Notes under the pieces: model-generated
The model's database searches: none
What the model saw: only the letters and a program-made list of their open reading frames with translations
What the model was told of the DNA's origin: nothing
In this document: positions 1 to 41,245 of the stretch, in pieces
How positions within the stretch are numbered: position 1 is the stretch's first letter
Layout: the number at the start of each line of letters is the position of its first letter
Translations under genes and position numbers: made by a program
Source: a virus
Taxonomy: Duplodnaviria; Heunggongvirae; Uroviricota; Caudoviricetes
Virus record (IMG/VR): IMGVR_UViG_2684622581_000003
Direction: 5' to 3' (one strand)
DNA length: 41,245 nt

Positions 1-477
1 ATGAAACTCATCAGTAATGATCTGCGCGATGGCGATAAGTTGCCGCATCGTCATGTCTTTAACGGCATGGGTTACGATGGCGATAATATTTCACCGCATC
101 TGGCGTGGGATGATGTTCCTGCGGGAACGAAAAGTTTTGTCGTCACCTGCTATGACCCGGATGCGCCAACCGGCTCCGGCTGGTGGCACTGGGTAGTTGT
201 TAACTTACCCGCTGATACCCGCGTATTACCGCAAGGGTTTGGCTCTGGTCTGGTAGCAATGCCAGACGGCGTTTTGCAGACGCGTACCGACTTTGGTAAA
301 ACCGGGTACGATGGCGCAGCACCGCCGAAAGGCGAAACTCATCGCTACATTTTTACCGTTCACGCGCTGGATATAGAACGTATTGATGTCGATGAAGGTG
401 CCAGCGGCGCGATGGTCGGGTTTAACGTTCATTTCCACTCTCTGGCAAGCGCCTCGATTACTGCGATGTTTAGTTAA
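1..477 (+). CDS. ybhB: YbhB, PEBP/kinase-inhibitor-like protein (host gene flanking attLambda on the bio side)
   Basis: 158-aa ORF recognised as E. coli YbhB; full length, starts at window base 1; its position beside the att core fits the chromosomal attLambda locus. Confidence 0.9.
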   Translation: MKLISNDLRDGDKLPHRHVFNGMGYDGDNISPHLAWDDVPAGTKSFVVTCYDPDAPTGSGWWHWVVVNLPADTRVLPQGFGSGLVAMPDGVLQTRTDFGKTGYDGAAPPKGETHRYIFTVHALDIERIDVDEGASGAMVGFNVHFHSLASASITAMFS

Positions 478-768: not shown

Positions 769-1070
769 GTCAACATACTGGGTTATCTGAATTTACAACT
801 ATGCTCAGCATCTCGATAAGCGCAGAGAAATGATGCAGTGGTGGGCGGATTGGCTTGATGGAGAGAAAAATAGCGCAACTTTTAGGCCACATCAATGAAA
901 TTGTTTTCCCATGCATGAGCAAAAATTAGAATAACATTGCATAGTCACAGTATCGATCATGATTCACAGCAATGATAGAATACAAATAAATTTAACATGT
1001 TTCCACCGAAACAATCACACATGTAGCATTCGTCTTTTTTTGATGTAATTAACATTAAATGGTATAACAT

Positions 1071-2858
1071 ATGGAACTGAAATACAGACCCGAAATTGAT
1101 GGGTTGAGAACATTAGCTGTTTTACCTGTTATCTTTTTTCATGCAGGTGTTCAATGGATTCCTGGCGGCTTTCTTGGAGTAGATGTTTTTTTTGTTATTA
1201 GTGGTTTTTTAATTACCAGCATTTTGCTGAAAGAATGCAGCAATAGAACATTTACATTCTCTGGGTTTTATGAGAGAAGGGTTCGTAGAATTGCGCCTGC
1301 ATTAATTCTAATGACATCAGTAACATTCATTATATCATTATTTATGATGGTTCCATATGACCTAAAGAATCTAGGTCAATCAGTTGTTGCAACAATTTTT
1401 TCAGCAAACAATATATTATTGTACTTAACGTCAGGATATTGGTCTACAGCATCTGAATTTAAACCATTGTATCACACATGGAGTCTTGCTGTAGAAGAAC
1501 AGTATTATCTTGTAGCCCCTGTAATAATATATATAATTTACTCAATAAATCATAATAAACTAATAAAGAATAGTTTTATGTTTTTACTGGTAATATCAAT
1601 TGCCAGTTTTTTATATGCAACAATTACAACAGTGCATAATATGGAGCTTTCATTTCTTATGCTCCCTTCAAGGGCGTGGGAGATTGCTCTTGGTGGGGTT
1701 GCCGCTATTGCGCACTATAAAATAAAAAGAAAAAGTAACATCTTAGCATACCTTGGTTTTTTATTGATAATATCAAGTTACTTCCTTGTGAATGGTAAAA
1801 AATCACACCCTGGATTTGAAACATTATTTCCAGTTCTTGGTGCATGTTTGTTTTTAATGCATTCAAATGCATCTAAAGGAATTGGAAAGATCATGTCAAT
1901 AAAACCAATTGTGTTATGTGGCATGATAAGTTATTCGCTATACCTTTGGCATCAACCTGTTTTTGCATTTATAAGATTAAACTCAAAATTTGAACCGTCA
2001 ACAACATATTTTATCGCATCCATTCCTTTAATTTTTATTATATCGTGGATGTCTTATGTTTTTGTAGAAAAACCATTCAGAAACAAGAGAAAAACATCTA
2101 CAAAGAAAATCTTATCATATACATTAGCATTTTCGTTGGTGTTATCAGCATCAGGAATTTTGATGCACAAAACATATGGATTGCAAAATATCAGGCCTGA
2201 TCTTGCATATGGAGGAAATCCACAGGAGTATGTGGATAGCCCGAAGAAATTAAAGAATATTGAGTTCTCAGACTATGGAAAGAAAATATTAATCATGGGT
2301 AACTCATATGCGAGAGATTTAATTAATGCAATATCTACAAAGATTAAAACAAATGATCTTAATATTGTATATTTTGAGGGTGGATGTGATTGGTCAATAG
2401 ATAATAAAAATAAATTAGATTACTACTTGAATGACTCAGACATTATTTTATATTCGGAGAATTGGGGTGCAGGCGACTATAATAATAACGTTGAAAAGTT
2501 AAAACACTGTTACGATTACATAAAGTCAAAAACAACTGCAAAAATGTACTTGATTGGCACAAAAAACTTCGGGTATAACAATAACTTTGCTGTTAACCTG
2601 TCTCTTAATGACAGAGTTTTAGCAAAAACATACCCGCTATCAAGATATATAGAGTTTAACAATAAGGCGAAAATGATTTTTGGCGATGACTACATAGATT
2701 TGTTTGACCTTATAAAAGACAACAATGGAATGGTTAGAGTTTTTGATGAGAATGGCAAATTTTTATCATATGATGCAAACCATCTAACGAAATATGGAGC
2801 AAGTTACATTGGAGAAGTCTTAGACAAAAAAACAGACTTACTTCAATCTTTGAAATAA
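1071..2858 (+). CDS. Membrane acyltransferase, acyltransferase-3 family with C-terminal extension (OafA/Oac-like O-antigen acyltransferase), probable lysogenic conversion gene
   Basis: 595-aa ORF with many hydrophobic segments in the N-terminal two thirds and a soluble C-terminal region; strongly AT-rich compared with neighbours; sits between the att site and the tailspike where P22-like phages carry O-antigen modification genes. Confidence 0.8.
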   Translation: MELKYRPEIDGLRTLAVLPVIFFHAGVQWIPGGFLGVDVFFVISGFLITSILLKECSNRTFTFSGFYERRVRRIAPALILMTSVTFIISLFMMVPYDLKNLGQSVVATIFSANNILLYLTSGYWSTASEFKPLYHTWSLAVEEQYYLVAPVIIYIIYSINHNKLIKNSFMFLLVISIASFLYATITTVHNMELSFLMLPSRAWEIALGGVAAIAHYKIKRKSNILAYLGFLLIISSYFLVNGKKSHPGFETLFPVLGACLFLMHSNASKGIGKIMSIKPIVLCGMISYSLYLWHQPVFAFIRLNSKFEPSTTYFIASIPLIFIISWMSYVFVEKPFRNKRKTSTKKILSYTLAFSLVLSASGILMHKTYGLQNIRPDLAYGGNPQEYVDSPKKLKNIEFSDYGKKILIMGNSYARDLINAISTKIKTNDLNIVYFEGGCDWSIDNKNKLDYYLNDSDIILYSENWGAGDYNNNVEKLKHCYDYIKSKTTAKMYLIGTKNFGYNNNFAVNLSLNDRVLAKTYPLSRYIEFNNKAKMIFGDDYIDLFDLIKDNNGMVRVFDENGKFLSYDANHLTKYGASYIGEVLDKKTDLLQSLK

Positions 2859-2892
2859 AATATATAATTTATTAGTCGCTCCCCAAAAAAAT

Positions 2893-2919
2893 ATACCACC
2901 TCTTATGTTGAGGTGGTAT
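2893..2919 (-). terminator. Hairpin terminator between the convergent acyltransferase and tailspike genes
   Basis: 10-bp stem ataccacctc / gaggtggtat with 7-nt loop; on the minus-strand transcript it is followed by a U-run (plus-strand aaaaaaa at 2885-2891). Confidence 0.6.
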
Positions 2920-2950
2920 ATAGATAATAACTATAGACTATTGCGTTTGT

Positions 2951-5125
2951 TTATTTCTGCATCCTTTTTATCTCTCTACGCATATATGCAGCCTCAAGAC
3001 AAAGTATTTCTTCGTAGCGTACAGTGTAACCTGAGTGAGCATCACGTGCCTCCTGAAGCATTACCTGAGTACCATCTTCTAAAATATCGTAAACAGCTTC
3101 TGTTGCTGGGGTATTGTCATAACATAGTATGCCATATTCGAATGGATCAACCCCATGTGATTCAAAAGCTGTCTTGATGTCTTGGGCTATGACCCCAATA
3201 TGTCTCCGGGCTTTACTACCTTTTTCTGCCACGCTTGCCTTTAATTTATATGATACATACTGAACGTCACCCCAGGCGTCGAGAACAGCATCAGGTATTT
3301 GTGACTCTTCTGTTTTTGAGTTTCTGTCTGACGTGACCTGAAAAGCTGTTTGTGTATACCCACCTGACCATGCATATGCTGACGTTCCACATGTTTGAGC
3401 GTTCTGCCGACCAGGCCTAACATAATCTACGCCCCACACGAGAACCGTTGAGGTACCGATATTCCAGTATGCTATATTAGATGTACTATCAACTATTTGT
3501 TGTTGCTGATATTCTCCATTTTTTGTCCGGTATGTTGTTGTTTGAAAGGCTCTAGGCAGAAACTGTAAACCATTAGTGCTAAGGTTTCTTATAGAGTTTT
3601 TAATGTCTGGGCTATTTCCGTCTTGTGTTCTTGCTATAGTCATTCCATCTGAGCAAGGTGGATGTCCATATTTAAGACGAAGATTTTCTATTACGGTAAG
3701 TGATTCTGAGCGATTGGTAACATCACCGGATTTTAGTAAGTACCATCCTGAAGAAGAGCTATTGTGTTCTACAATATTCTTAAACGTAAATTTAGGATCG
3801 GTATAATTCTCTGCATATTGCGGCTGATCCATTAAAACCAATCCTTTAAATTCTGAATCAGAGCGAGAGTTATTAATGTGCATCCCATCAAAAGTTATGT
3901 TGTCAGATTGTGTATTCTCTGTGCCATCTGTTCTTAAGTACAGAAAATTTCCCCCTTTGAAATACTCAAACCAACCATCAATAACTTTGAAATTAAAGAA
4001 CTGCCTTAGTCTAAAAAATGCACCACCAAAAACCTCACCTTTCTCAATCCATGGATTGTTGATGGTAAAATTAAATCCACCTGTTATATCGAAGTAAATT
4101 CTTGCTCTACAGTTTTCGAATATTGGGTTATCCATAACATTGAGATTGAATGCTGCAAAGTTATTTGCACCAGACTTATTCGTAGTAAGAATATATCCTG
4201 AATCGTTCACAGATTTAAATTTAGGGTAATAATGATATACTGCAATCCATGAAGCATTCCATATAGTATGGAATGCTTCCCATGAGCAGTTATATGTTGC
4301 AAAGTTAGCCACCCACTCACCATCATCAGCCTCCATGAACACTGATTTCAGATCAGATACTCCATTACCAATAAACAGTATGTTTTCAAAAAGACATCTC
4401 TCAAATTTGAACATGCCTGGTTGAGTGAACATTGCATAGTTTCCTGATGCTTTGATGGTGGCCCTTCCATTTGGGCATACGATGCTAAAGACTTTACCTG
4501 CCGATGTAGCTATTGGCTTAGATGTCACGTAGACAAATCCAGCAGGAATTAACAATCCAGCATTAGCATTAAGCACAGAAATAACTTTGTCATCCACCTC
4601 TGGATTAGCTAAGCCACTTATTGCCCCTAAATCTTGTATGGATAGCAGGTCAGAATTTTTATCATGCTGAGTCCTTCTTATTGCATCAAAAAAAGGCTGT
4701 TTAACGCCAATTAACGCATCACCTTTACTTTCATCATCTAAATATTTACCCGTTTGAGCAAGCTGATTAACGATGTCAATACTGAATTGGTCGGGGTCAT
4801 ATTTCAGTACATTAGGGAAATAGAACTGCTGAGCACCGTACGCATCATAAACAGCCATAGAATGGCCCTGTACAGTAACGAATTTGGCAATCTGTCCGTT
4901 ATATACAGGATAACCAGCAGCGTTAATGATGATTGGTTGCGAAACAGGAACGTGAGAGCCGTCTTCGTTCTCCACATAAACCTGAATCTGGTTTTCAGGA
5001 TTTACCGGGTTAGTGTCAATTTTTCCTATATAAATTTTGCCATTGGCTACCGCTTTAAAAGAACGAGCCATAGTGAAGAGTTGCGAAGGCATGCTTACCA
5101 CAACATTTGCGGTGATATCTGACAT
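2951..5125 (-). CDS. Tailspike protein: P22-type head-binding N-terminal domain, divergent central receptor-binding domain, C-terminal intramolecular-chaperone (peptidase S74-like) domain
   Basis: N-terminus [11 protein letters not shown]...[15 protein letters not shown]...[13 protein letters not shown]...VLKYDPDQF matches the P22 gp9 head-binding domain; C-terminus [31 protein letters not shown] resembles the auto-cleaving chaperone domain of endosialidase-type fibers. Start placed at the internal Met that aligns with P22 gp9; the ORF-track start is 5173. Confidence 0.85.
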
Positions 5126-5246
5126 TTCATTACTCCAAACGAATGATATGATGCAACCATGATGTGATTGCATACCGAAATGGTACTATTGAGTATTTAT
5201 CCAGTAGGTTACGATGCCATTCCACCCAACTGGTGAGGCATCAAGG

Positions 5247-5507
5247 ATGTACAGCAAATACGACGAGGCGCAGTTTCACTTGAGACTTCCGCATGAACTC
5301 CACGAGAAAATTAAACAGCGCGCGAAGATGAATAACAGGTCGCTGAACTCTGAGATAATTGCAGCGATTGAAGAATCATTGACTAAACAAAGCTCTGCAT
5401 CAGTTTACATTGACGATGCAGAGCGTATGGCAGAACAACAATCTGATATGGTTAAGAAAATTGTCTTTGATACGCTCAAGGAGCTATATAAAAAAGACAG
5501 CAACTAA
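5247..5507 (+). CDS. mnt: Mnt-like ribbon-helix-helix repressor (immI-type)
   Basis: Resembles P22 Mnt (RLPHELHEKIKQRAKMNNRSLNSEIIAAIEESL ... NDAERMAEQQSDMVKKIVFDTLKELYKK); transcribed opposite to the late operon as in P22; start chosen at an internal Met, with 5214 as an alternative. Confidence 0.7.
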   Translation: MYSKYDEAQFHLRLPHELHEKIKQRAKMNNRSLNSEIIAAIEESLTKQSSASVYIDDAERMAEQQSDMVKKIVFDTLKELYKKDSN

Positions 5508-5596
5508 CCATCCATTACGGAGGATTTATGCAAAGAGATATGATGAATATTGCATTCTACATATTTGGTTTTTGCACTTTCCTGGTATTTGCAAAG

Positions 5597-7594
5597 CTAT
5601 TCTGACAACGCATCAGACTTAGCCCCCTGCGTCAGAGCGTTAATTGCATTTTGTGCCTGCTGCATTGCTTTCTCAAAGGCTGTTGATCCGCGTGGGGTGT
5701 TTGCCATTCGGAGCATTGCATTTCTGAATGGCTCGCTCTCATAGGCGCGAGTAAGAAGTCCGTAGCTTACTGCTGCGCCAGTTGTCGCCGGGTTCATTGC
5801 CGTCCCATACCCAATAATGAACGGGATAGTTTGCTGTCCTGTGGGTGTTGTTACTGCCGCTTTTGCAGCCTGCTGCGTGGATTGCAGGTAGTTTTTCAAT
5901 CCTTTCAGATAAGCAGCGTCCTGCCCCTTAAATGTGATGCCAGTCTGGTTTTGCAGGATGTTAAGCTGCCGAAGGAACTGGTCAGGGGATCCGCCAGATT
6001 TCTCCATCGCCTTTCCAATGATGCCATTGCGCATTTGCGCCCTGCCAACACGACCAACTGAGTTATACAGCGTCTTAATTTCAGATTTGTTCTTGCTGAA
6101 TAGCATGTTGTTGACAACTTCCGGCGTCAGATCGCCTTTCATGAGAACATTCTTCAGCCTGGTATTCTTTAGTTTCGCTGCTTCGTCAGCGTAGACGGCA
6201 TTGGCCTGCTGATATTTACGGAGAGTATCGTTGCCAAGATTCTGACCAATGGCACCATTGATATCGTCTGTCATCGCCTTGTAAACGCGCTGAATGGCGG
6301 CATCGGAACGGTTTGGTAACACTGGTCGCTCACCCTTCACGTCCATTCTGAACTGGCTGCGCAGGTCGCTTAATTGCTTCAAATCCAGATTTACCGGACC
6401 ATCAGGACCAGCATTGCGAACAAGCTCATCACGATATGACTGAAGTTTTGAAATAGTCTCGTTATCAGCAACCTTACCAAGCTTCTGCAGGTTAGATATT
6501 TCTGTATCAATCTGCTGAATTGCTCGTGCAGGCTGAATGTTTACTCCAGCCATAGCATTCTGAACCTGCTCCAGTCGATTACCGGCGGCACGACGAATTC
6601 CTGATGTTTTCGCTTTAAGGCTGTCAATAACAACAGCTGGATCATACTCACCGAATTTATCAGCAAATCTCTGCACCAACTGGCTTCTCGCTTCCTGTTG
6701 CGTTGCTCTCATTCCGCTTGTGCCAGCCAGAGGGATATTTTCTGCTGTAGTCTGCGCCATTTTTCCGACGCGTGAAGTTGGTTGTAACAGGTCTGTGGTG
6801 TGCAGAGGAACTCCTTCACGCTCTGCAAATCTGATAGCCTGCTGCGCTTCTGGCGCAATAGCACCACGTACGCCACGATAAGCAGCACCTAATCCACGTC
6901 CGGCAGCGTTAATAGCACCGCCAGCCAGCACACCAACGCCTAAATCGGTGGCGAGTGCTTCCGCATCATCTTTCGCACTATTTGCAGCAAGTGATCCAAC
7001 TGCGTTTTCAGCGAGAAGGCGAGTTGCACCCTGAGCAATTCGACCAGCAAGTGTTGGTGCCTGTGTTGCCGCTCTCTCAACGCCAGCAGGAGTGAGGTAA
7101 GGCAATGCTTCAGCAAATACCCTTCCCTCTGTCGTTTGTGGAGTCAGCGCGCCTTGCTGAAGGCCAAAGTCCTGCTCTAATCCCTGCGTTGTTACTCGTG
7201 GCGCTGGGTGATATGTACCATCGCCAATGCCGAGTTTACCGCCAGCCCAAGCCGCCGCGCTTGTTACAGCATCTGCAACTGATGCAGGTATGTTTGCCAC
7301 GTTCACGCCAGCCTGCACCAGTCCGCGACCAGTCTCTTTTACTGCTTCGCCAAGATCAGACATAAATCCACTTTGCTGTGGTTGTTGCTGTGCTTCTGGT
7401 TGTTGTGTCTCCACTGGCTGCACAGATGGCAATGGATAGGCAGCATAGAAAGCTTGCTTAGCCTGCTCTGCATTTTCTCCGGCTTGCGGGGCCACGACTT
7501 CATTGAAGTATTGCTCCTGAGCCTGCGCTTTTTGTTCTGGTGCTAACGCCTGATACTGTGGAGAGGCGATAACATCTTTCCATGCTTTAGCCAT
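5597..7594 (-). CDS. Ejection (internal virion) protein, P22 gp16-like
   Basis: 665-aa ORF in the P22 gp16 position at the end of the gp7-gp20-gp16 series; Ala/Gln/Gly-rich composition typical of ejection proteins. Confidence 0.7.
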   Translation of the reverse strand: MAKAWKDVIASPQYQALAPEQKAQAQEQYFNEVVAPQAGENAEQAKQAFYAAYPLPSVQPVETQQPEAQQQPQQSGFMSDLGEAVKETGRGLVQAGVNVANIPASVADAVTSAAAWAGGKLGIGDGTYHPAPRVTTQGLEQDFGLQQGALTPQTTEGRVFAEALPYLTPAGVERAATQAPTLAGRIAQGATRLLAENAVGSLAANSAKDDAEALATDLGVGVLAGGAINAAGRGLGAAYRGVRGAIAPEAQQAIRFAEREGVPLHTTDLLQPTSRVGKMAQTTAENIPLAGTSGMRATQQEARSQLVQRFADKFGEYDPAVVIDSLKAKTSGIRRAAGNRLEQVQNAMAGVNIQPARAIQQIDTEISNLQKLGKVADNETISKLQSYRDELVRNAGPDGPVNLDLKQLSDLRSQFRMDVKGERPVLPNRSDAAIQRVYKAMTDDINGAIGQNLGNDTLRKYQQANAVYADEAAKLKNTRLKNVLMKGDLTPEVVNNMLFSKNKSEIKTLYNSVGRVGRAQMRNGIIGKAMEKSGGSPDQFLRQLNILQNQTGITFKGQDAAYLKGLKNYLQSTQQAAKAAVTTPTGQQTIPFIIGYGTAMNPATTGAAVSYGLLTRAYESEPFRNAMLRMANTPRGSTAFEKAMQQAQNAINALTQGAKSDALSE

Positions 7595-8982
7595 TAATCA
7601 CCCCATAGTGAAGAAAAGTTACTGCTGGCTGCTGGCTGTGATACCTGTGCAGGTTGAGATTGCTGCCGCTGAGATTTACCAACATTAACGTTATATTGTT
7701 GGTTGTAATTGTTGGTGTATTCCTGAATCTCACGAATCGACTGCTGCATAGCCTCCGGGCTTGAATAGTCAACCTGCGGCATCCCCTGAAAATACATCTT
7801 CGCTTCTGCAACGGTGTTAATACCACTGGCACCCATATCCCTTGCTGCCGCCACACCCTGATTCTGCATTCTGCCCTGAATACGTTGTGCTGAGTTATAT
7901 AACTGGCGCTGCTCTTTTCCTGTTAATCGGCTGCGAACATCAGCACCAATTGCTGGATTACCTGCACCGCCTGTCATTCCTGTCATGAAATCGAGAGCAG
8001 AAGCGTCTGCATTTGCGATCGCGTCGATATCCTTCTTCATGGCATAGTTTTGTGCTGATGCAGACGATGTTGCAGGCGCTGCGATTGAACTGGCAGGAAC
8101 GCGAACCATATTCCCCTCGTTGTCGATGCCTTCGTAGAACGCATTAGCCCCAGCGCCGTGAAGTTTCCCTCCTACCGTTACAGTTCTGCCATCTGATAAC
8201 TGAACTGTACGCTCATCATTCCCAGCGGTTCCTCTTGTTGACGCTCGCTGCATTGCCAAATCCTGCCCGCGTCTCGCAGTAGAAGCAGATAAGTCCTGAC
8301 CGCGCATCGTGATGTTCTGGCCTCGTGCTGTTAGCGCCTCGCCAGCCTGATTGCTGCGGATTGTCTCTGCCAGCCTGCCTCGGTCAATCTCACGACCTGC
8401 CATCTTGTCCTGAACATTGAAGTAATCAATCGGACCAAGAGCAGCCATCCCAAGGTGATCAACAAACTCACCAAATCCTGAAGGATTCTGCTGATACATC
8501 TGAGCAACGTTATTAGGGTCAACACCGACGCGAGTCAGTTCCTTGGCGTTGTTTTGCAGCCATGATTGCATTGCTTCTGGAGACGATGACGCAAGGCGTG
8601 CGCCAGCCGCTAAGGTGCCTATAGAATTGCGCTGGTCTTCATCAATGAATCCCATGCCTTTACGAACGGATTCAATCTGGTCTGGATATTGAGTAGCCAA
8701 CTGACGAAAAGCACCGCGATCACCAGACGCATAAGCATTAGCGTATGCCTGCTGAAATTCTTTCTGCCGCTGAGCCTGCTTTTCCTGCTGAAAAACACCC
8801 GCAATACCTGAAAGACCTTGCAAAGCAGTCAGCCCAACATTGTTAGCGCCTGAACGCTCAATATCATTGTTCTGCCTGATAAGCTGAAGCGTATTGCCGA
8901 TGTCATTTACGCTCGGAGCGTTTGAGTTGACGCCGCCGATACCAGCCAACAATCCGCCGTTTGTTCCTTGCCAAGTAGCCAT
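7594..8982 (-). CDS. Ejection protein, P22 gp20-like
   Basis: 462-aa ORF, position and size match P22 gp20; start overlaps the stop of the upstream gene. Confidence 0.7.
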
Positions 8983-8991
8983 GATTACCCC

Positions 8992-9684
8992 TTAAAACAA
9001 CGAGCCAAGCAATCCGATACCAGCACCAATGCCAGCGCCCCAAGGCGTTGATGTTCCCAAAAGGCTGGCAAGACCTGCACCGGCAATCGCACCAGACGTG
9101 CCACCGCTAATTGCAGTCTGAAGACTTGATGGTTTATTGGCATTAGCAGCGGCAAGTGCTGCGCTTTGCTGTGCAATGCTGCTCATGTTGTTGGCGTACG
9201 TCTGCCCGGCGTTTGCCTGACCTTGCAGCGCACCAAGCCCAACGTTTGCCAGATTGTTGTAATTGCTCATCTGATTTGATAACCAAGACTGACCGAGTGT
9301 CGGCGCGATCGTAGCCAGTTGATTGCTTGTGGCTGTCGAACCAAGTCCTCCCGTAGCCTCCGCAGCAGCAAGACTCTGGTAACGAGCCTGACCTGCAAGG
9401 TCTTTATACTGCTGAGAGTTGTAATACTGATTAAGTGCCTGCCCCTGACCTTCTAAACTGGAAAGGTTCTGAAGCTGGTTAACATACTGCTCCGCAAGAG
9501 GCGTGAACAGAGCAAGGTTTTTCATGATCGTCTGCCACTGCTGATTTTGCAGGTCTGCTGCATACTTCTGAGCTTCTGCTGCATACTTTGCGCTTTTATC
9601 AGAGCTGCCACCTTTCCCGCCTTTTTCAGGGCAATAAGGTTCCTCGCCACGCAGTTTTCTGCCTAGCTTAAATGCATATAACAT
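8992..9684 (-). CDS. Ejection protein, P22 gp7-like
   Basis: 230-aa ORF, size and position match P22 gp7 (229 aa). Confidence 0.7.
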   Translation of the reverse strand: MLYAFKLGRKLRGEEPYCPEKGGKGGSSDKSAKYAAEAQKYAADLQNQQWQTIMKNLALFTPLAEQYVNQLQNLSSLEGQGQALNQYYNSQQYKDLAGQARYQSLAAAEATGGLGSTATSNQLATIAPTLGQSWLSNQMSNYNNLANVGLGALQGQANAGQTYANNMSSIAQQSAALAAANANKPSSLQTAISGGTSGAIAGAGLASLLGTSTPWGAGIGAGIGLLGSLF

Positions 9685-9686
9685 GG

Positions 9687-10142
9687 CTATCTCCCGTGAT
9701 TCAGGAAGTCGATTAGTTCTTCGCGTGTGGCGCTGTAAAACGTCACGTCATCCACGCCTTTGAAGTATTTCTTGATGGTTCCTACACGCTTAAGGCCAAT
9801 CATTGCGCAGTACATCTGACCGTGGCGGAATTTGCGCGCAGCGAACGATGTGACGCACTGAACGGTGGTGTTAGTCAGAATGTATCGCCAGAACGCCAGC
9901 CCGATTTCCTTGCTGAATCCACGAACCTCTGGCAGGTACATGGCGTGGCAATCGAATGTAAGCGGCTGAATTTCCTGATAGTAAACAATGCCGCCAAACT
10001 GACCGTGCACGTTAACCTCAAAGTAACGGCATTCAGGCTTGTAGTCGTATCCATCACCGTTGTTGCTTCCGGCAATAATGTCAGGGTGATTTCCGACTGC
10101 TTCTATCAGGTCGATGTTTCGCGTTGGTTTGAACTGAACCAT
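9687..10142 (-). CDS. Virion protein, P22 gp14-like
   Basis: 151-aa ORF between the tail needle and gp7 homologues, the P22 gene 14 position. Confidence 0.6.
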   Translation of the reverse strand: MVQFKPTRNIDLIEAVGNHPDIIAGSNNGDGYDYKPECRYFEVNVHGQFGGIVYYQEIQPLTFDCHAMYLPEVRGFSKEIGLAFWRYILTNTTVQCVTSFAARKFRHGQMYCAMIGLKRVGTIKKYFKGVDDVTFYSATREELIDFLNHGR

Positions 10143-10990
10143 TACTGCTCCGCGATTATCTTGATGGTTGTGGCAGTAAACGCCGCACCATTTGACTGAA
10201 TGGTTAACGTGCTGCCATTTGTGGCAAGAAAGCCGTCTTTATCCACGCTGAAGAACGTAGCTAACAGGATGTTATCGGTCGTTGTCGCCGAGTTGCGACT
10301 GCTTACCAGTGTGTCAGGAACAGAGCCGGAAAATGTTAGTTGCATTGACCTGTTGGCGGTTCCGCTGGGCCACGTCCCGACGATCGACAGCTTGAAGAAC
10401 AGGGTTTTGTTCTCGTTGAACACAACCATCTTGTTGTTAACGGTGTCGAAGAATGGTGCCAACGAGCCTGATGACGGCGTGAGCGTTTTCAGCAGGCTAA
10501 CAAGGTTGGTCGGCGCTGTCGGAATGGTTACAGATACGCCAGAGTAAACAACCTCTGACTTTTTGCGAGTAGTGGCATACTCCAGAGAATCGATGCGCGA
10601 TTCATGGTCTGAAACCTGCGACTCCAGCGACTGAACTCTGGTATCAAGCGACGCAATATCGCTTTCATTCTGAGCGATTCGCGTTTCATGTTCCTGAAGA
10701 GTTGATTCTGCCTGGCTGATTCGCTCCTCATGATTAACAAGCGTTGCTTCCGCAGCAGAAATTCGCTGCTCATGGTCAGCGAGAATCACATCCTGCTCAT
10801 CGTTCCTGACCTGTGCATCATAAGCGCCCTGTCCGGCCTCGTTGGCCTTGTTAGCCACGTTACCAACATCAGTGCCCTGTGCGATAACGTAAAGCAGATA
10901 CGACTGCGAGAAGATATTGCGTGGAAGGACTGATGTGTCGAGTCGTGTAGTCTGAATGATTACCGGCACATTGAGATTCGAATCCGCCAT
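10142..10990 (-). CDS. Tail needle protein (P22 gp26-like) with C-terminal knob extension
   Basis: 282-aa ORF with heptad-rich central coiled coil ([65 protein letters not shown]) and extra C-terminal domain, as in Sf6/HK620-type needles. Confidence 0.75.
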
Positions 10991-12408
10991 TACTCAATCC
11001 TTATCTGGCAGCCAGAAAGAGTGACAGGTGACTTCGTGATAACGCGCAATTTGAATCCGACATTTTTCCTGATGCGCCCAACTCGCTTCCACAAAACGCG
11101 TTTGTCGTAAACGAACGGTTCATTCTGCTCAATCATCTGCTCACGCCCGTAATTGATGCCGTCAGTAGTTGCAGAGAGAAAAAGGCGGTCAGCATACTGC
11201 GCAACTCCAGTTGAAGATTCAACTTCAAGGTCGAAAACTCTGGCGTTATCTGCTTTGAACAACGGAGTAAACAGCAGGTGTTCCTGTTGCTTGTCGTACT
11301 GGCTGCTGATATCGAACTGCAATTTGCCGGTAACCGATTCCAGCTTATCGCCGCACGTTATCTGATTGCCTTCGTAAATGAAGTCAATGGCGCGATACAC
11401 ATCGCCATACAGGCCTGTTTTCAGTACACACCATTGTGGGCCATTGGCGCTTGAAGATGCGTCGTACACGAGGACGTGACGCGGAAGGTGGATAATCAGC
11501 AACTCATGAGCATCAAACCGCAACGATTCCATCACGCCATCAGCCAGTTCATTAGCAGTGTAGGAGCGGAGGATTTTCTCAATGCTCGCGCTGGCGATTG
11601 GTGACACCTGACCGGATCCGATGATGTACACAGACGGCGCACCTGTTGCCGGATTGCTGATGAACGCATACGAATCAGCAAACGGCGTTTTGCAGTAGGT
11701 TCCGGCAATCCCTTTCTGCACCATCAGCGATGGCTGTGCGACATACAAAGCGGCACCAACAGTGGTTGCACCAGTCAGGGAGAAATATTCAATCGTCGAC
11801 GAACCAAAGCAGACTATGAAGTCTCGCCATGTACCTATGCCGATGATGCCGTCAGGCTGCGACTCTGCGCGATATTGTGCGCTGTATCGGTCAGGGTGCG
11901 ATTCGTCTTCAAGGTCAGTGATAAACCATGAATCAGTGCCGTCTTTTGACCACGCATAACGCCCACGTAAGCGTGTAATGTCGCGGACTGAGCCTAACTC
12001 ATACTGTGTGAATCCGCTGTCTGTAGGCCAGTTTGAGACGGTTTTAACCGTGCCATCATAACGATACTCTACCAGTTGACCATTAACGCCTACCGCCTGT
12101 GATGTCCGACCATGCGCCATTGATACGCGACCACTTCCGGCAACATCACCGACTTCACTTTCGCCTTTGTACAGCTTGCCACCACACACGCGATAAACAG
12201 CACTCTGCGCCATGTTGTACTCGACGCCGCGAGATACACCGTTCACATCAGATCGTTTGGCAATGCCCGGGAATGAGCGAAGATATCCGCTGCTGTTAAG
12301 GATTTCTTTTGGTGTAGCCAACATATTCACTGGCAGATAGTCGATATAGTCGGCGTTTCGAAAGTCTTTGCCGACACCTTTCATAAGCGGAAGTTGCTGA
12401 ATCGGCAT
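10990..12408 (-). CDS. Tail/portal-proximal hub protein, P22 gp10-like
   Basis: 472-aa ORF, same length as P22 gp10, in the correct order after gp4. Confidence 0.75.
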
Positions 12409-38560: not shown

Positions 38561-38779
38561 ATGTACTTGACACTTCAGGAGTGGAACGCACGCCAGCGAC
38601 GCCCAAGAAGCCTTGAAACAGTTCGTCGATGGGTACGCGAGTGCAGGATATTTCCTCCTCCGGTTAAGGATGGAAGAGAGTATCTGTTCCACGAATCAGC
38701 GGTAAAGGTTGACTTAAATCGACCAGTAACAGGTAGCCTTTTGAAGAGGATCAGAAATGGGAAGAAGGCGAAGTCATGA
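38561..38779 (+). CDS. xis: Excisionase, lambda Xis
   Basis: 72-aa ORF matching lambda Xis (MYLTLQEWNARQRRPRSLETVRRWVRECRIFPPPVKDGREYLFHESAVKVDLNRP...). Confidence 0.95.
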   Translation: MYLTLQEWNARQRRPRSLETVRRWVRECRIFPPPVKDGREYLFHESAVKVDLNRPVTGSLLKRIRNGKKAKS

Positions 38780-39827
38780 GCGCCGGGATTTACCCCCTAA
38801 CCTTTATATAAGAAACAATGGATATTACTGCTACAGGGACCCAAGGACGGGTAAAGAGTTTGGATTAGGCAGAGACAGGCGAATCGCAATCACTGAAGCT
38901 ATACAGGCCAACATTGAGTTATTTTCAGGACACAAACACAAGCCTCTGACAGCGAGAATCAACAGTGATAATTCCGTTACGTTACATTCATGGCTTGATC
39001 GCTACGAAAAAATCCTGGCCAGCAGAGGAATCAAGCAGAAGACACTCATAAATTACATGAGCAAAATTAAAGCAATAAGGAGGGGTCTGCCTGATGCTCC
39101 ACTTGAAGACATCACCACAAAAGAAATTGCGGCAATGCTCAATGGATACATAGACGAGGGCAAGGCGGCGTCAGCCAAGTTAATCAGATCAACACTGAGC
39201 GATGCATTCCGAGAGGCAATAGCTGAAGGCCATATAACAACAAACCCTGTCGCTGCCACTCGCGCAGCAAAATCAGAGGTAAGGAGATCAAGACTTACGG
39301 CTGACGAATACCTGAAAATTTATCAAGCAGCAGAATCATCACCATGTTGGCTCAGACTTGCAATGGAACTGGCTGTTGTTACCGGGCAACGAGTTGGTGA
39401 TTTATGCGAAATGAAGTGGTCTGATATCGTAGATGGATATCTTTATGTCGAGCAAAGCAAAACAGGCGTAAAAATTGCCATCCCAACAACATTACATGTT
39501 GATGCTCTCGGGATATCAATGAAGGAAACACTTGATAAATGCAAAGAGATTCTTGGCGGAGAAACCATAATTGCATCTACTCGTAGTGAACCGCTTTCAT
39601 CCGGCACAGTATCAAGGTATTTTATGCGCGCACGAAAAGCATCAGGTCTTTCCTTCGAAGGGGATCCGCCTACCTTTCACGAGTTGCGCAGTTTGTCTGC
39701 AAGACTCTATGAGAAGCAGATAAGCGATAAGTTTGCTCAACATCTTCTCGGGCATAAGTCGGACACCATGGCATCACAGTATCGTGATGACAGAGGCAGG
39801 GAGTGGGACAAAATTGAAATCAAATAA
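38757..39827 (+). CDS. int: Integrase, lambda Int (tyrosine recombinase)
   Basis: 356-aa ORF matching lambda Int along its length (MGRRRSHERRDLPPNLYIRNNGYYCYRDPRTGKEFGLGRDRRIAITEAIQAN...), overlapping xis as in lambda. Confidence 0.97.
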   Translation: MGRRRSHERRDLPPNLYIRNNGYYCYRDPRTGKEFGLGRDRRIAITEAIQANIELFSGHKHKPLTARINSDNSVTLHSWLDRYEKILASRGIKQKTLINYMSKIKAIRRGLPDAPLEDITTKEIAAMLNGYIDEGKAASAKLIRSTLSDAFREAIAEGHITTNPVAATRAAKSEVRRSRLTADEYLKIYQAAESSPCWLRLAMELAVVTGQRVGDLCEMKWSDIVDGYLYVEQSKTGVKIAIPTTLHVDALGISMKETLDKCKEILGGETIIASTRSEPLSSGTVSRYFMRARKASGLSFEGDPPTFHELRSLSARLYEKQISDKFAQHLLGHKSDTMASQYRDDRGREWDKIEIK

Positions 39828-39961: not shown

Positions 39962-41245
39962 GTGAACACATTTTCAGTTTCCCGTCTGGCGCTGGCATTG
40001 GCTTTTGGCGTGACGCTGACCGCCTGTAGCTCAACCCCGCCCGATCAACGTCCTTCTGATCAAACCGCGCCTGGTACCTCTTCTCGCCCGATTCTGTCGG
40101 CAAAAGAAGCGCAGAATTTCGATGCTCAACACTATTTTGCATCCCTGACACCAGGTGCTGCAGCGTGGAATCCTTCCCCGATTACCCTGCCTGCGCAACC
40201 TGACTTTGTTGTCGGCCCGGCGGGCACTCAAGGTGTAACGCATACCACGATTCAGGCGGCGGTAGATGCGGCAATTATCAAGCGTACCAACAAGCGCCAG
40301 TATATTGCCGTGATGCCTGGTGAGTATCAGGGAACGGTATATGTCCCTGCCGCTCCGGGTGGAATTACTCTGTACGGTACAGGTGAAAAACCGATTGATG
40401 TGAAGATTGGGCTTTCCCTTGATGGTGGCATGAGCCCTGCCGACTGGCGTCACGACGTCAACCCGCGCGGCAAATATATGCCAGGTAAACCAGCGTGGTA
40501 TATGTACGATAGCTGCCAGAGCAAACGCAGCGACAGTATCGGTGTTCTCTGCTCTGCGGTCTTCTGGTCACAAAACAATGGCCTGCAACTGCAAAATCTG
40601 ACCATCGAAAACACGCTGGGCGATAGCGTAGATGCAGGTAACCATCCGGCGGTGGCACTGCGTACTGATGGTGACCAGGTACAGATTAACAACGTTAACA
40701 TTCTCGGTCGTCAGAACACCTTCTTTGTCACCAACAGCGGTGTGCAGAACCGTCTGGAAACCAACCGTCAGCCGCGTACGCTGGTGACCAACAGCTACAT
40801 TGAAGGGGATGTGGATATCGTTTCTGGTCGCGGCGCAGTGGTGTTCGATAACACCGAATTCCGCGTGGTGAACTCACGTACTCAGCAAGAAGCGTATGTG
40901 TTTGCACCGGCTACGCTGTCCAACATTTACTACGGTTTCCTCGCCGTAAACAGCCGTTTCAATGCTTTCGGTGATGGTGTGGCGCAACTGGGCCGCTCGC
41001 TGGATGTTGATGCCAATACCAACGGTCAGGTGGTGATCCGTGATAGCGCCATCAACGAAGGTTTTAACACGGCTAAACCGTGGGCCGATGCGGTGATCTC
41101 TAATCGTCCGTTTGCGGGTAATACCGGCAGCGTAGATGATAACGACGAAATACAGCGCAATCTGAATGACACTAACTACAACCGCATGTGGGAATACAAT
41201 AACCGCGGCGTGGGTAGTAAAGTGGTTGCAGAGGCGAAGAAGTAA
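39962..41245 (+). CDS. ybhC: YbhC, pectinesterase-like outer-membrane lipoprotein (host gene flanking attLambda on the gal side)
   Basis: 427-aa ORF with lipoprotein signal (LTACSS) recognised as E. coli YbhC; the first codon appears to be GTG. Confidence 0.9.
   Translation: MNTFSVSRLALALAFGVTLTACSSTPPDQRPSDQTAPGTSSRPILSAKEAQNFDAQHYFASLTPGAAAWNPSPITLPAQPDFVVGPAGTQGVTHTTIQAAVDAAIIKRTNKRQYIAVMPGEYQGTVYVPAAPGGITLYGTGEKPIDVKIGLSLDGGMSPADWRHDVNPRGKYMPGKPAWYMYDSCQSKRSDSIGVLCSAVFWSQNNGLQLQNLTIENTLGDSVDAGNHPAVALRTDGDQVQINNVNILGRQNTFFVTNSGVQNRLETNRQPRTLVTNSYIEGDVDIVSGRGAVVFDNTEFRVVNSRTQQEAYVFAPATLSNIYYGFLAVNSRFNAFGDGVAQLGRSLDVDANTNGQVVIRDSAINEGFNTAKPWADAVISNRPFAGNTGSVDDNDEIQRNLNDTNYNRMWEYNNRGVGSKVVAEAKK

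What the first reader, a model, noticed from the sequence alone, without database searches (positions are those of the whole stretch)
2951..5125. Three-part mosaic tailspike with a C-terminal intramolecular chaperone domain
The N-terminal roughly 110 residues match the P22 head-binding domain and the C-terminal roughly 100 residues look like an auto-cleaving S74-type chaperone domain ([20 protein letters not shown]), a feature P22 tailspike lacks. The central roughly 500 residues are a different receptor-binding/depolymerase domain of unknown specificity. Domain shuffling at this gene determines host range.
Basis: partly seen in the sequence, partly recalled or inferred. Interest (0 to 1): 0.5.

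Follow-up and report, generated by a model that had tools for sequence, protein, structure and literature searches.

The report
P22-type prophage tailspike with self-cleaving chaperone
This is an intact tailspike (host-recognition) gene of a P22-like prophage in E. coli, built from a standard virion-attachment domain, a rare sugar-cutting beta-helix of unknown target and a self-removing folding domain; the layout is real, but it is already well documented in related phages.

Summary
The gene is on the minus strand (2951-5125, 724 aa).

- **Residues 1-113** are a P22 head-binding domain (Pfam PF09008, E 1e-66; about 95% identical to HK620 and CUS-3).
- **Residues 599-724** are a Peptidase_S74 intramolecular chaperone. 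S599 and K604 align with the K1F endosialidase Ser911/Lys916 dyad and with the first residue of the released GA-1 chaperone.

It is not new. CUS-3's endosialidase tailspike has the same three-part layout. Fifty of the 120 best database clusters combine both domains. The identical protein is already in NCBI, uncharacterised.

Recent exchange involved two units, not three. Residues 131-723 (helix plus chaperone) are 74% identical to tail-fibre proteins of siphovirus DS8 and N4-like phage HK2, which carry a different anchor. The junction lies in a motif shared across phage genera.

The target is probably an O-antigen, because an O-antigen-type acyltransferase always sits next to the gene, but this is unproven.

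Verdict: ordinary, a new member of a known kind.

The parts
2951..5125 (-). Tailspike gene, 724 codons plus stop (stop codon at 2951-2953)
   Evidence: ORF and translation. The identical protein P0001 is in NCBI and on at least 15 contigs.
5133..5136 (-). GGAG ribosome-binding site 8 nt upstream of the ATG at 5125
   Evidence: Upstream sequence read directly.
4787..5125 (-). Head-binding (virion anchor) domain, residues 1-113
   Evidence: PF09008, E 1.1e-66. 92-100% identity per 25-residue window to HK620 gp9 and the CUS-3 tailspike. DNA is 91-96% identical to HK620 up to gene nt 344.
4613..4734 (-). Junction motif at the start of the beta-helix cap (residues ~131-171, [10 protein letters not shown]...RTQHDKNSD); the likely crossover site
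   Evidence: DNA is 73-81% similar to tailspike genes of Sf6, DS8, HK2, PHB05/JLBYU50, 92CQ and SKML-39. 179 of 189 phmmer hits to the central domain cover only this region. Sliding identity.
3332..4786 (-). Linker plus central receptor-binding / putative depolymerase domain, residues 114-598; right-handed parallel beta-helix from about residue 160 to 500
3314..3331 (-). S599-D-R-N-S-K604: predicted autocleavage site and Ser/Lys dyad
   Evidence: Invariant in alignments A1 and A2. Aligns with SDERHK at the start of the 3gud chain and with A911...K916 of 3gw6.
2954..3331 (-). C-terminal intramolecular chaperone domain (Peptidase_S74), residues 599-724
   Evidence: PF13884, E 1.3e-13. 3gud E 2e-24, 3gw6 E 1e-17, 9vvr E 2e-37.
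2885..2921 (-). Intrinsic terminator of the tailspike gene (12-bp stem, 7-nt loop, T tract)
   Evidence: Terminator scan; sequence.
1071..2858 (+). Convergent neighbour: 595-aa AT3 + SGNH acyltransferase, a probable O-antigen acetylase (lysogenic conversion)
   Evidence: PF01757 + PF19040. phrog_6705 'O-antigen acetylase', E 1e-134. 31% identity to BTP1 GtrC and SPC32H Oac. Present next to the identical tailspike in all 8 places examined.
5214..5507 (+). Divergent neighbour: Mnt/Arc-type repressor; left edge of the shared mnt-tailspike-acyltransferase cassette (window 791-5513)
   Evidence: PF03869 + PF11423. Cassette boundaries from blastn against loci L006-L013.

Best explanation
This is the tailspike (gp9 equivalent) of an apparently complete P22-like prophage that sits between ybhB and ybhC in E. 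coli.

Shown here: residues 1-113 form the conserved head-binding domain, which in P22 and Sf6 docks the trimer onto the tail hub. Residues ~160-500 fold as a right-handed parallel beta-helix of the pectin-lyase/tailspike type. Residues 599-724 are a Peptidase_S74 intramolecular chaperone with an intact Ser599/Lys604 dyad.

Inferred mechanism: three chains are brought into register by the C-terminal chaperone. Once the trimeric stalk and helix are folded, Ser599, activated by Lys604, cuts the chain just N-terminal to itself. This releases a ~126-residue chaperone and leaves a ~598-residue mature spike. Six such trimers on the virion bind and cleave a surface polysaccharide so that the needle can reach the outer membrane.

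The target is most likely a particular O-antigen, because a phage O-antigen-type acyltransferase is always encoded next to the gene. That enzyme would modify the receptor in lysogens.

Evolution: the gene is an anchor of HK620/Sf6 type joined, at a motif conserved across phage genera, to a helix-plus-chaperone cassette. The same cassette is carried by siphovirus DS8 and N4-like phage HK2 on a different anchor.
For: - **Domains:**
- **Dyad:** invariant and aligned to experimentally defined dyads.
- **Genomic setting:** the gene lies downstream of the gp7/gp20/gp16 ejection-protein genes in a genome 96% identical to phage IME10 over 82% of 19.8 kb.
- **Expression signals:** RBS and terminator present.
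- **Conservation:** identical protein on at least 15 contigs.
- **Cassette:** residues 131-723 are 74% identical to DS8 and HK2 proteins that carry the PF18668 anchor instead.
- **Junction motif:** shared at DNA level with Sf6, Gamaleyavirus and large myovirus tailspike genes.
- **Neighbour:** AT3-SGNH acyltransferase homologous to BTP1 GtrC/Oac, linked to the tailspike in 8 of 8 places.
- **Precedent:** the CUS-3 tailspike has PF09008 + catalytic domains + PF13884, and modular exchange of this kind is described in PMC5380687 and PMC10408124.
Against: - Nothing here shows cleavage, trimerisation or enzyme activity.
- The structure model is a monomer. It is poor for residues 1-158 and 563-605.
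- No relative of the central domain is characterised. The DS8 literature search found nothing on its fibre.
- The close variant P0002 (84% identical) has no acyltransferase next to it, so the linkage is not universal.
- In CUS-3 the neighbouring acetyltransferase acts on a capsule, not an O-antigen.
Confidence: 0.8

Rival explanations
1. Same architecture, but the receptor is a capsule (K antigen), colanic acid or another exopolysaccharide rather than an O-antigen.
Confidence: 0.22
2. The beta-helix only binds the glycan, or deacetylates it, and has no depolymerase activity.
Against: A cluster of invariant acidic residues on successive coils (WxE361, WxE387, D400, D408, D443, E453) is typical of glycosidase or lyase tailspikes. 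No SGNH or esterase domain was detected in the protein.
Confidence: 0.1
3. The S74 domain is retained in the mature spike as a distal structural or binding domain instead of being cut off.
For: Cleavage was not tested. The model is low-confidence around residues 563-605.
Against: The dyad and its spacing are invariant and align with proteins in which cleavage has been demonstrated. The GA-1 crystal chain starts exactly at the aligned Ser.
Confidence: 0.07
4. The gene is a decaying prophage relic with no current function.
For: One locus (L007) keeps the gene inside a truncated prophage remnant next to the csc genes.
Against: The 724-codon frame is intact, with an RBS and a terminator. The protein is identical on at least 15 contigs, in prophages with different integrases and gp16 variants. 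The window holds a full set of P22-like virion genes.
Confidence: 0.03

Closest known systems
Phage CUS-3 endosialidase tailspike (SiaK1, CP000711; Stummeyer et al. 2006 as cited in PMC5380687)
   Same: Same three-part layout in a P22-like prophage of E. coli: PF09008 at residues 1-113 (about 95% identical), a swapped catalytic centre, and PF13884 at the C-terminus. The chaperone region is about 45% identical. An acyl-modification locus lies next to the gene.
   Different: The CUS-3 centre is the endosialidase beta-propeller set (PF12217, PF12219, PF12195, PF12218), none of which is found here. The CUS-3 protein is 981 aa against 724 aa here, and its target, K1 polysialic acid, is known.
Tail-fibre/tailspike proteins of Shigella phage DS8 (Deseoctovirus, QCQ57303) and Escherichia phage HK2 (Gamaleyavirus, WYA83917)
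   Same: 74% identity over residues 131-723, meaning the same beta-helix and the same S74 chaperone with the same SDRNxK site.
   Different: Their N-terminal anchors are PF18668 Tail_spike_N rather than Head_binding. Identity drops to 44-68% in residues ~226-350, so specificity may differ. There is no similarity downstream of the stop codon. Neither protein is characterised.
Sf6 gp14 endorhamnosidase and HK620 gp9 / P22 gp9 tailspikes
   Same: Head-binding domain: Sf6 80-96%, HK620 92-100%, P22 about 71%. Sf6 similarity continues through the neck to about residue 196. The gene position after the ejection-protein genes is the same. The RBD fold class is a beta-helix in all.
   Different: There is no detectable sequence similarity in the helix beyond residue ~200-227. 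Their C-termini are PF21519 (Sf6) or PF22424/PF18781 (HK620), not S74, and they fold without a released chaperone.
C-terminal intramolecular chaperone domains of K1F endoNF (3gw6), GA-1 gp12 (3gud) and T5 pb1 (4uw8); MEROPS/Pfam Peptidase_S74
   Same: Homologous over the whole domain (E 1e-17, 2e-24 and 4e-6). The Ser and Lys are in the same columns.
   Different: Here the domain is attached to a different upstream stalk and catalytic domain. Cleavage has not been tested.

Membership tests
P22-like (Lederbergvirus-type) tailspike, gp9 family | N-terminal head-binding domain (PF09008) homologous to P22 gp9 residues 1-~110 | tested here: met
   E 1.1e-66, full-length profile match over residues 1-113. 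PDB hits to the head-binding domains of P22, Sf6 and HK620-type tailspikes.
P22-like (Lederbergvirus-type) tailspike, gp9 family | Encoded after the ejection-protein genes (gp7/gp20/gp16) of a P22-like genome | tested here: met
   Neighbours are a gp16-like DNA transfer protein (phrog_770) and P22_gp7, Inj_translocase and Phage_P22_gp16 families. The backbone is 96% identical to IME10.
P22-like (Lederbergvirus-type) tailspike, gp9 family | Homotrimer with a parallel beta-helix receptor-binding domain, six copies on the tail hub | tested here: inconclusive
   The beta-helix fold is supported in a monomer model. Trimer formation and virion attachment cannot be tested with these tools.
Peptidase_S74 / C-terminal intramolecular chaperone domain | Profile match above Pfam's gathering score | tested here: met
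   51.5 bits against a cutoff of 22, residues 599-658.
Peptidase_S74 / C-terminal intramolecular chaperone domain | Catalytic Ser and Lys five residues apart (S-x4-K), aligned with endoNF S911/K916 | tested here: met
   S599 and K604 align with A911 (S911A) and K916 of 3gw6, and with S1 and K6 of 3gud. They are invariant in 16-17 homologues.
Peptidase_S74 / C-terminal intramolecular chaperone domain | Autocatalytic release of the domain after trimer folding | not testable with these tools
   Needs expression of the wild type and S599A/K604A mutants.
Endosialidase tailspikes (CUS-3, K1F) | Endosialidase beta-propeller and associated domains (PF12217, PF12219, PF12195, PF12218) | tested here: not met
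   None was detected in the window protein at E <= 0.1, while all are found in CUS-3 by the same search. The gene is therefore not an endosialidase.
Sf6-type endorhamnosidase | Homology through the catalytic beta-helix and the PF21519 C-terminal domain | tested here: not met
   Sequence similarity ends at about residue 196-227. PF21519 is absent.
O-antigen-specific depolymerase tailspikes (functional class) | Binds and cleaves a defined O-antigen; specificity matches the host serogroup | not testable with these tools
   Only indirect support: the linked AT3-SGNH acyltransferase related to O-antigen acetylases. The host serogroup could not be retrieved.

The most novel reading that the evidence does not exclude
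The central beta-helix (residues ~200-598) belongs to a small, wholly uncharacterised depolymerase family. Only 10 clusters at 50% identity among 1.84 billion representatives cover the whole domain. It may cut an O-antigen or other glycan for which no phage enzyme is yet known. The same cassette has been traded between temperate P22-like prophages and lytic sipho- and N4-like phages, through a junction motif that one survey (PMC10408124) reported as absent from Lederbergvirus prophages.
Probability: 0.35. Interest if true: 0.3.

Novelty: new member of a known kind. Interest (0 to 1): 0.15.

Why it matters
Tailspike receptor-binding modules set phage host range. They are also used as serotyping reagents, as antivirulence depolymerases and as parts for engineered phages or tailocins.

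This gene adds one more uncharacterised specificity module that is already shown by nature to work on three different anchors: the P22-type head-binding domain, and PF18668 anchors in a siphovirus and an N4-like phage. Its tight linkage to an acyltransferase gives a ready-made receptor/anti-receptor pair to test.

It does not change any concept. The architecture, the self-cleaving chaperone and cross-genus module swapping are all established.

Tried and rejected
1. **Full-length match in complete E. coli genomes.** None found; 1,112 genomes match only the first ~340-470 nt.
2. **Published work on phage DS8 or its fibre.** Only passing mentions, so no receptor could be transferred by homology.
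3. **A conserved downstream motif or terminator shared with DS8, HK2 or P0002**, like 'motif three' of PMC10408124. No similarity beyond the stop codon.
4. **The weak Pfam hit EB_dh** (E 0.014, 15.8 bits against a cutoff of 33.3). Dismissed as below threshold.
5. **The phrog_8280 label 'colanic acid degradation'**. Not used as evidence, because the named phage SEN22 matches only residues 1-192.
7. **Motif sequences of PMC10408124.** These exist only as figures (supplement list), so identity between my junction motif and their 'motif one' is inferred from its position and from the genera that share it. It was not compared base by base.
8. **Host O-serogroup.** It could not be obtained, because the O-antigen locus is not in the window or on the retrieved flanks.

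Full report
**What is there.** The coordinates 2951-5125 delimit a real gene, but on the minus strand. The mechanical ORF runs to an ATG at 5173. The conserved start is the ATG at 5125 ([10 protein letters not shown]...), preceded by GGAG 8 nt upstream, which gives 724 residues. A strong intrinsic terminator follows the stop codon on the same strand (12-bp stem, T tract; 2921-2885).

**Check of the observation.**
- Pfam finds Head_binding (PF09008) over residues 1-113 (E 1.1e-66) and Peptidase_S74 (PF13884) over residues 599-658 (E 1.3e-13). Both are far above their curated cutoffs.
- Against solved structures, the N-terminus matches Sf6 gp14 (residues 1-196, E 4e-87) and the P22 tailspike (1-130, E 2e-51).
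- The C-terminus matches a tailspike in 9vvr (549-723), the GA-1 neck-appendage chaperone 3gud (599-722) and the K1F endosialidase chaperone 3gw6 (569-722).
- Residues ~197-548 match no solved structure by sequence.

The description is therefore accurate. The only corrections are the strand and a chaperone domain of ~126 rather than ~100 residues.

First, no characterised tailspike matches full length. In 50,697 phage records the best hits cover residues 131-723 at 74% (DS8, HK2) or residues 1-227 at 64% (Sf6). No complete E. coli genome covers 80% or more of the gene. Second, the catalytic dyad is present. The segment T598-S599-D-R-N-S-K604 aligns column for column with 'SDERHK', the first residues of the released GA-1 chaperone chain. 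It also aligns with 'ANGERK' of the K1F S911A crystal construct, so that S599 corresponds to S911 and K604 to K916. S599, D600 and K604 are invariant in two alignments of 16-17 homologues reaching down to 36% identity. Neither refutation applies.

An exhaustive phmmer search of residues 125-598 against 1.84 billion representatives found only 10 clusters (at 50% identity) covering the whole domain. The other 179 hits match only residues ~130-230, which form the N-terminal cap of the helix. Invariant polar residues cluster on successive coils: WxE361, WxE387, D400, D408, H416, D443, K445 and E453. These are my candidates for the active site. This is inference only.

**Mosaic structure.** Sliding identity gives three source types.
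- Residues 1-114 (gene nt 1-344) are HK620/CUS-3/IME10-like: 92-100% at protein level and 91-96% at DNA level.
- The neck up to gene nt 471 is Sf6-like at DNA level (68-72%).
- From residue 131 to the last residues, the protein is DS8/HK2-like. Identity is 74% overall, 44-88% in the helix and 80-100% in the chaperone.

DS8 is a siphovirus (Deseoctovirus) and HK2 an N4-like Gamaleyavirus. Both carry the cassette on a PF18668 Tail_spike_N anchor. Identity in the chaperone tracks identity in the helix across relatives (P0012, P0014, P0018). So in recent history the exchanged unit was helix plus chaperone, and the gene is a two-piece recombinant.

At greater depth, the last ~175 residues alone match otherwise unrelated spikes (9vvr, 6eu4, phrog_1171, phrog_7121). 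The three-module view therefore holds over longer times.

The crossover region (window 4613-4734, residues ~131-171, [10 protein letters not shown]...RTQHDKNSD) is 73-81% similar at DNA level to tailspike genes of Sf6, DS8 and HK2, the large myoviruses PHB05, JLBYU50 and 92CQ, and the Kuttervirus-type phage SKML-39. Its position and the genera that share it resemble the 'motif one/two' recombination hotspot described for lytic coliphages in PMC10408124. That paper did not find the motif in Lederbergvirus prophages. I could not compare the sequences directly, because the motifs are given only in figures. There is no shared sequence downstream of the stop codon.

**Genomic setting.** The window is a P22-like prophage, 96% identical to phage IME10 over 82% of 19.8 kb. 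It lies between ybhB (1-477) and ybhC (39962-41245), with a lambda-type integrase at 38757-39827. The tailspike follows the gp7/gp20/gp16 ejection-protein genes. It is flanked by an Mnt/Arc-type repressor (5214-5507, + strand) and, convergently, by a 595-aa AT3+SGNH acyltransferase (1071-2858). That acyltransferase matches phrog_6705 'O-antigen acetylase' (E 1e-134) and is 31% identical to BTP1 GtrC and SPC32H Oac.

The identical tailspike occurs on at least 15 contigs. In all 8 places inspected, the same acyltransferase and Mnt gene flank it. Window 791-5513 is 98-99.5% identical to those loci, even where the integrase, the integration site (the yfdC/mlaA side) and the gp16 variant differ. 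So mnt, tailspike and acyltransferase travel as a block among P22-like prophages. A variant tailspike 84% identical (P0002) lacks the acyltransferase.

**How it most likely works.**
- *Shown:* domain identities, dyad, fold and context.
- *Established for the families (K1F, GA-1 and T5 chaperones; P22 and Sf6 tail machines; PMC4690869, PMC3357383, PMC9728967):* the C-terminal domain nucleates trimerisation and then removes itself by Ser/Lys catalysis, and the head-binding domain docks the trimer on the tail hub.
- *Inferred here:* cleavage just before S599, giving a 598-residue mature spike and a 126-residue released fragment; enzymatic cleavage of a surface glycan by the helix; and an O-antigen as that glycan, because the linked acyltransferase is of the O-antigen-modifying type and would protect lysogens from superinfection.

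A capsule or other exopolysaccharide target remains a serious rival at ~0.2. CUS-3 sets the precedent for an S74-bearing P22-like spike aimed at a capsule, with a capsule acetylation locus next door.

**Comparison with what is known.** The CUS-3 endosialidase tailspike has exactly PF09008 + catalytic domains + PF13884 and is experimentally characterised (GenBank note; PMC5380687). Among the 120 best protein clusters retrieved, 50 combine PF09008 and PF13884. Their lengths range from 665 to 882 aa, and most resemble this protein only in the N-terminal 16-27%, so many different centres share this frame in E. coli prophages. Exchange of receptor-binding modules between Lederbergvirus, Gamaleyavirus, siphoviruses and others on genus-specific anchors is described in PMC11990801, PMC10408124 and PMC12724387. 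The window protein is not an endosialidase, since none of the endosialidase domains is present. It is also not an Sf6-type endorhamnosidase, since similarity ends near residue 200.

**Verdict.** It is a new, uncharacterised member of a well-known kind. Residual interest lies in the rarity and unknown specificity of the central helix family, and in the cross-lifestyle spread of its cassette.

Noticed in passing
window 1-477, 38757-39827, 39962-41245: The whole P22-like prophage lies between ybhB and ybhC. From my own knowledge this is the classical lambda attachment region. It uses a lambda-type integrase (Arm-DNA-bind_1 + Phage_integrase). Prophages carrying the identical tailspike elsewhere sit next to yfdC/mlaA with a different integrase.
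   Followed up: partly
window 791-5513: The block mnt - tailspike - acyltransferase is 98-99.5% identical in loci L006-L013, while flanking modules differ: gp16 variants of 602-759 aa and different integrases. In L012 and L013 similarity breaks at 5513 and resumes at 7676 at only 92.8%. The block behaves as a mobile host-range/conversion cassette.
   Followed up: partly
window 1071-2858 (+): A 595-aa AT3 + SGNH acyltransferase, only about 31% identical to any phage-borne O-antigen acetylase in the phage collection (BTP1 GtrC, SPC32H Oac, Pseudomonas phage enzymes). Its substrate is unknown.
   Followed up: partly
L007 (GCA_017046975.1, DADIFB010000002.1) 3187-11408: A truncated prophage remnant keeps an intact mnt - tailspike - acyltransferase - integrase segment directly beside sucrose-utilisation genes (GH32, PfkB, LacY-type). 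Similarity to the window stops at window 7495, which lies inside the gp16-like DNA-transfer gene at 5597-7594.
   Followed up: no
L014 4478-4936 and 5001-7199: In the locus of the 84%-identical variant P0002, an HNH/AP2 endonuclease gene lies immediately upstream of the tailspike. The first six residues of that tailspike differ (MPEQLYNVVVS against [11 protein letters not shown]). An ant-like gene is present and there is no acyltransferase.
   Followed up: no
window 5214-5507 (+): An Mnt/Arc-type repressor gene is present, but no arc-ant pair lies between it and the tailspike. This resembles the reduced immI regions annotated in HK620, and differs from CUS-3 and the P0002 locus, which keep ant.
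   Followed up: no
PDB 9vvr chain A (843 aa, 18 chains): A recently deposited 'tail spike protein' shares the last ~160 residues, including the SD...K site and the chaperone (E 2e-37), but nothing upstream. I could not identify its source phage, or tell whether the chaperone is resolved in the structure.
   Followed up: no
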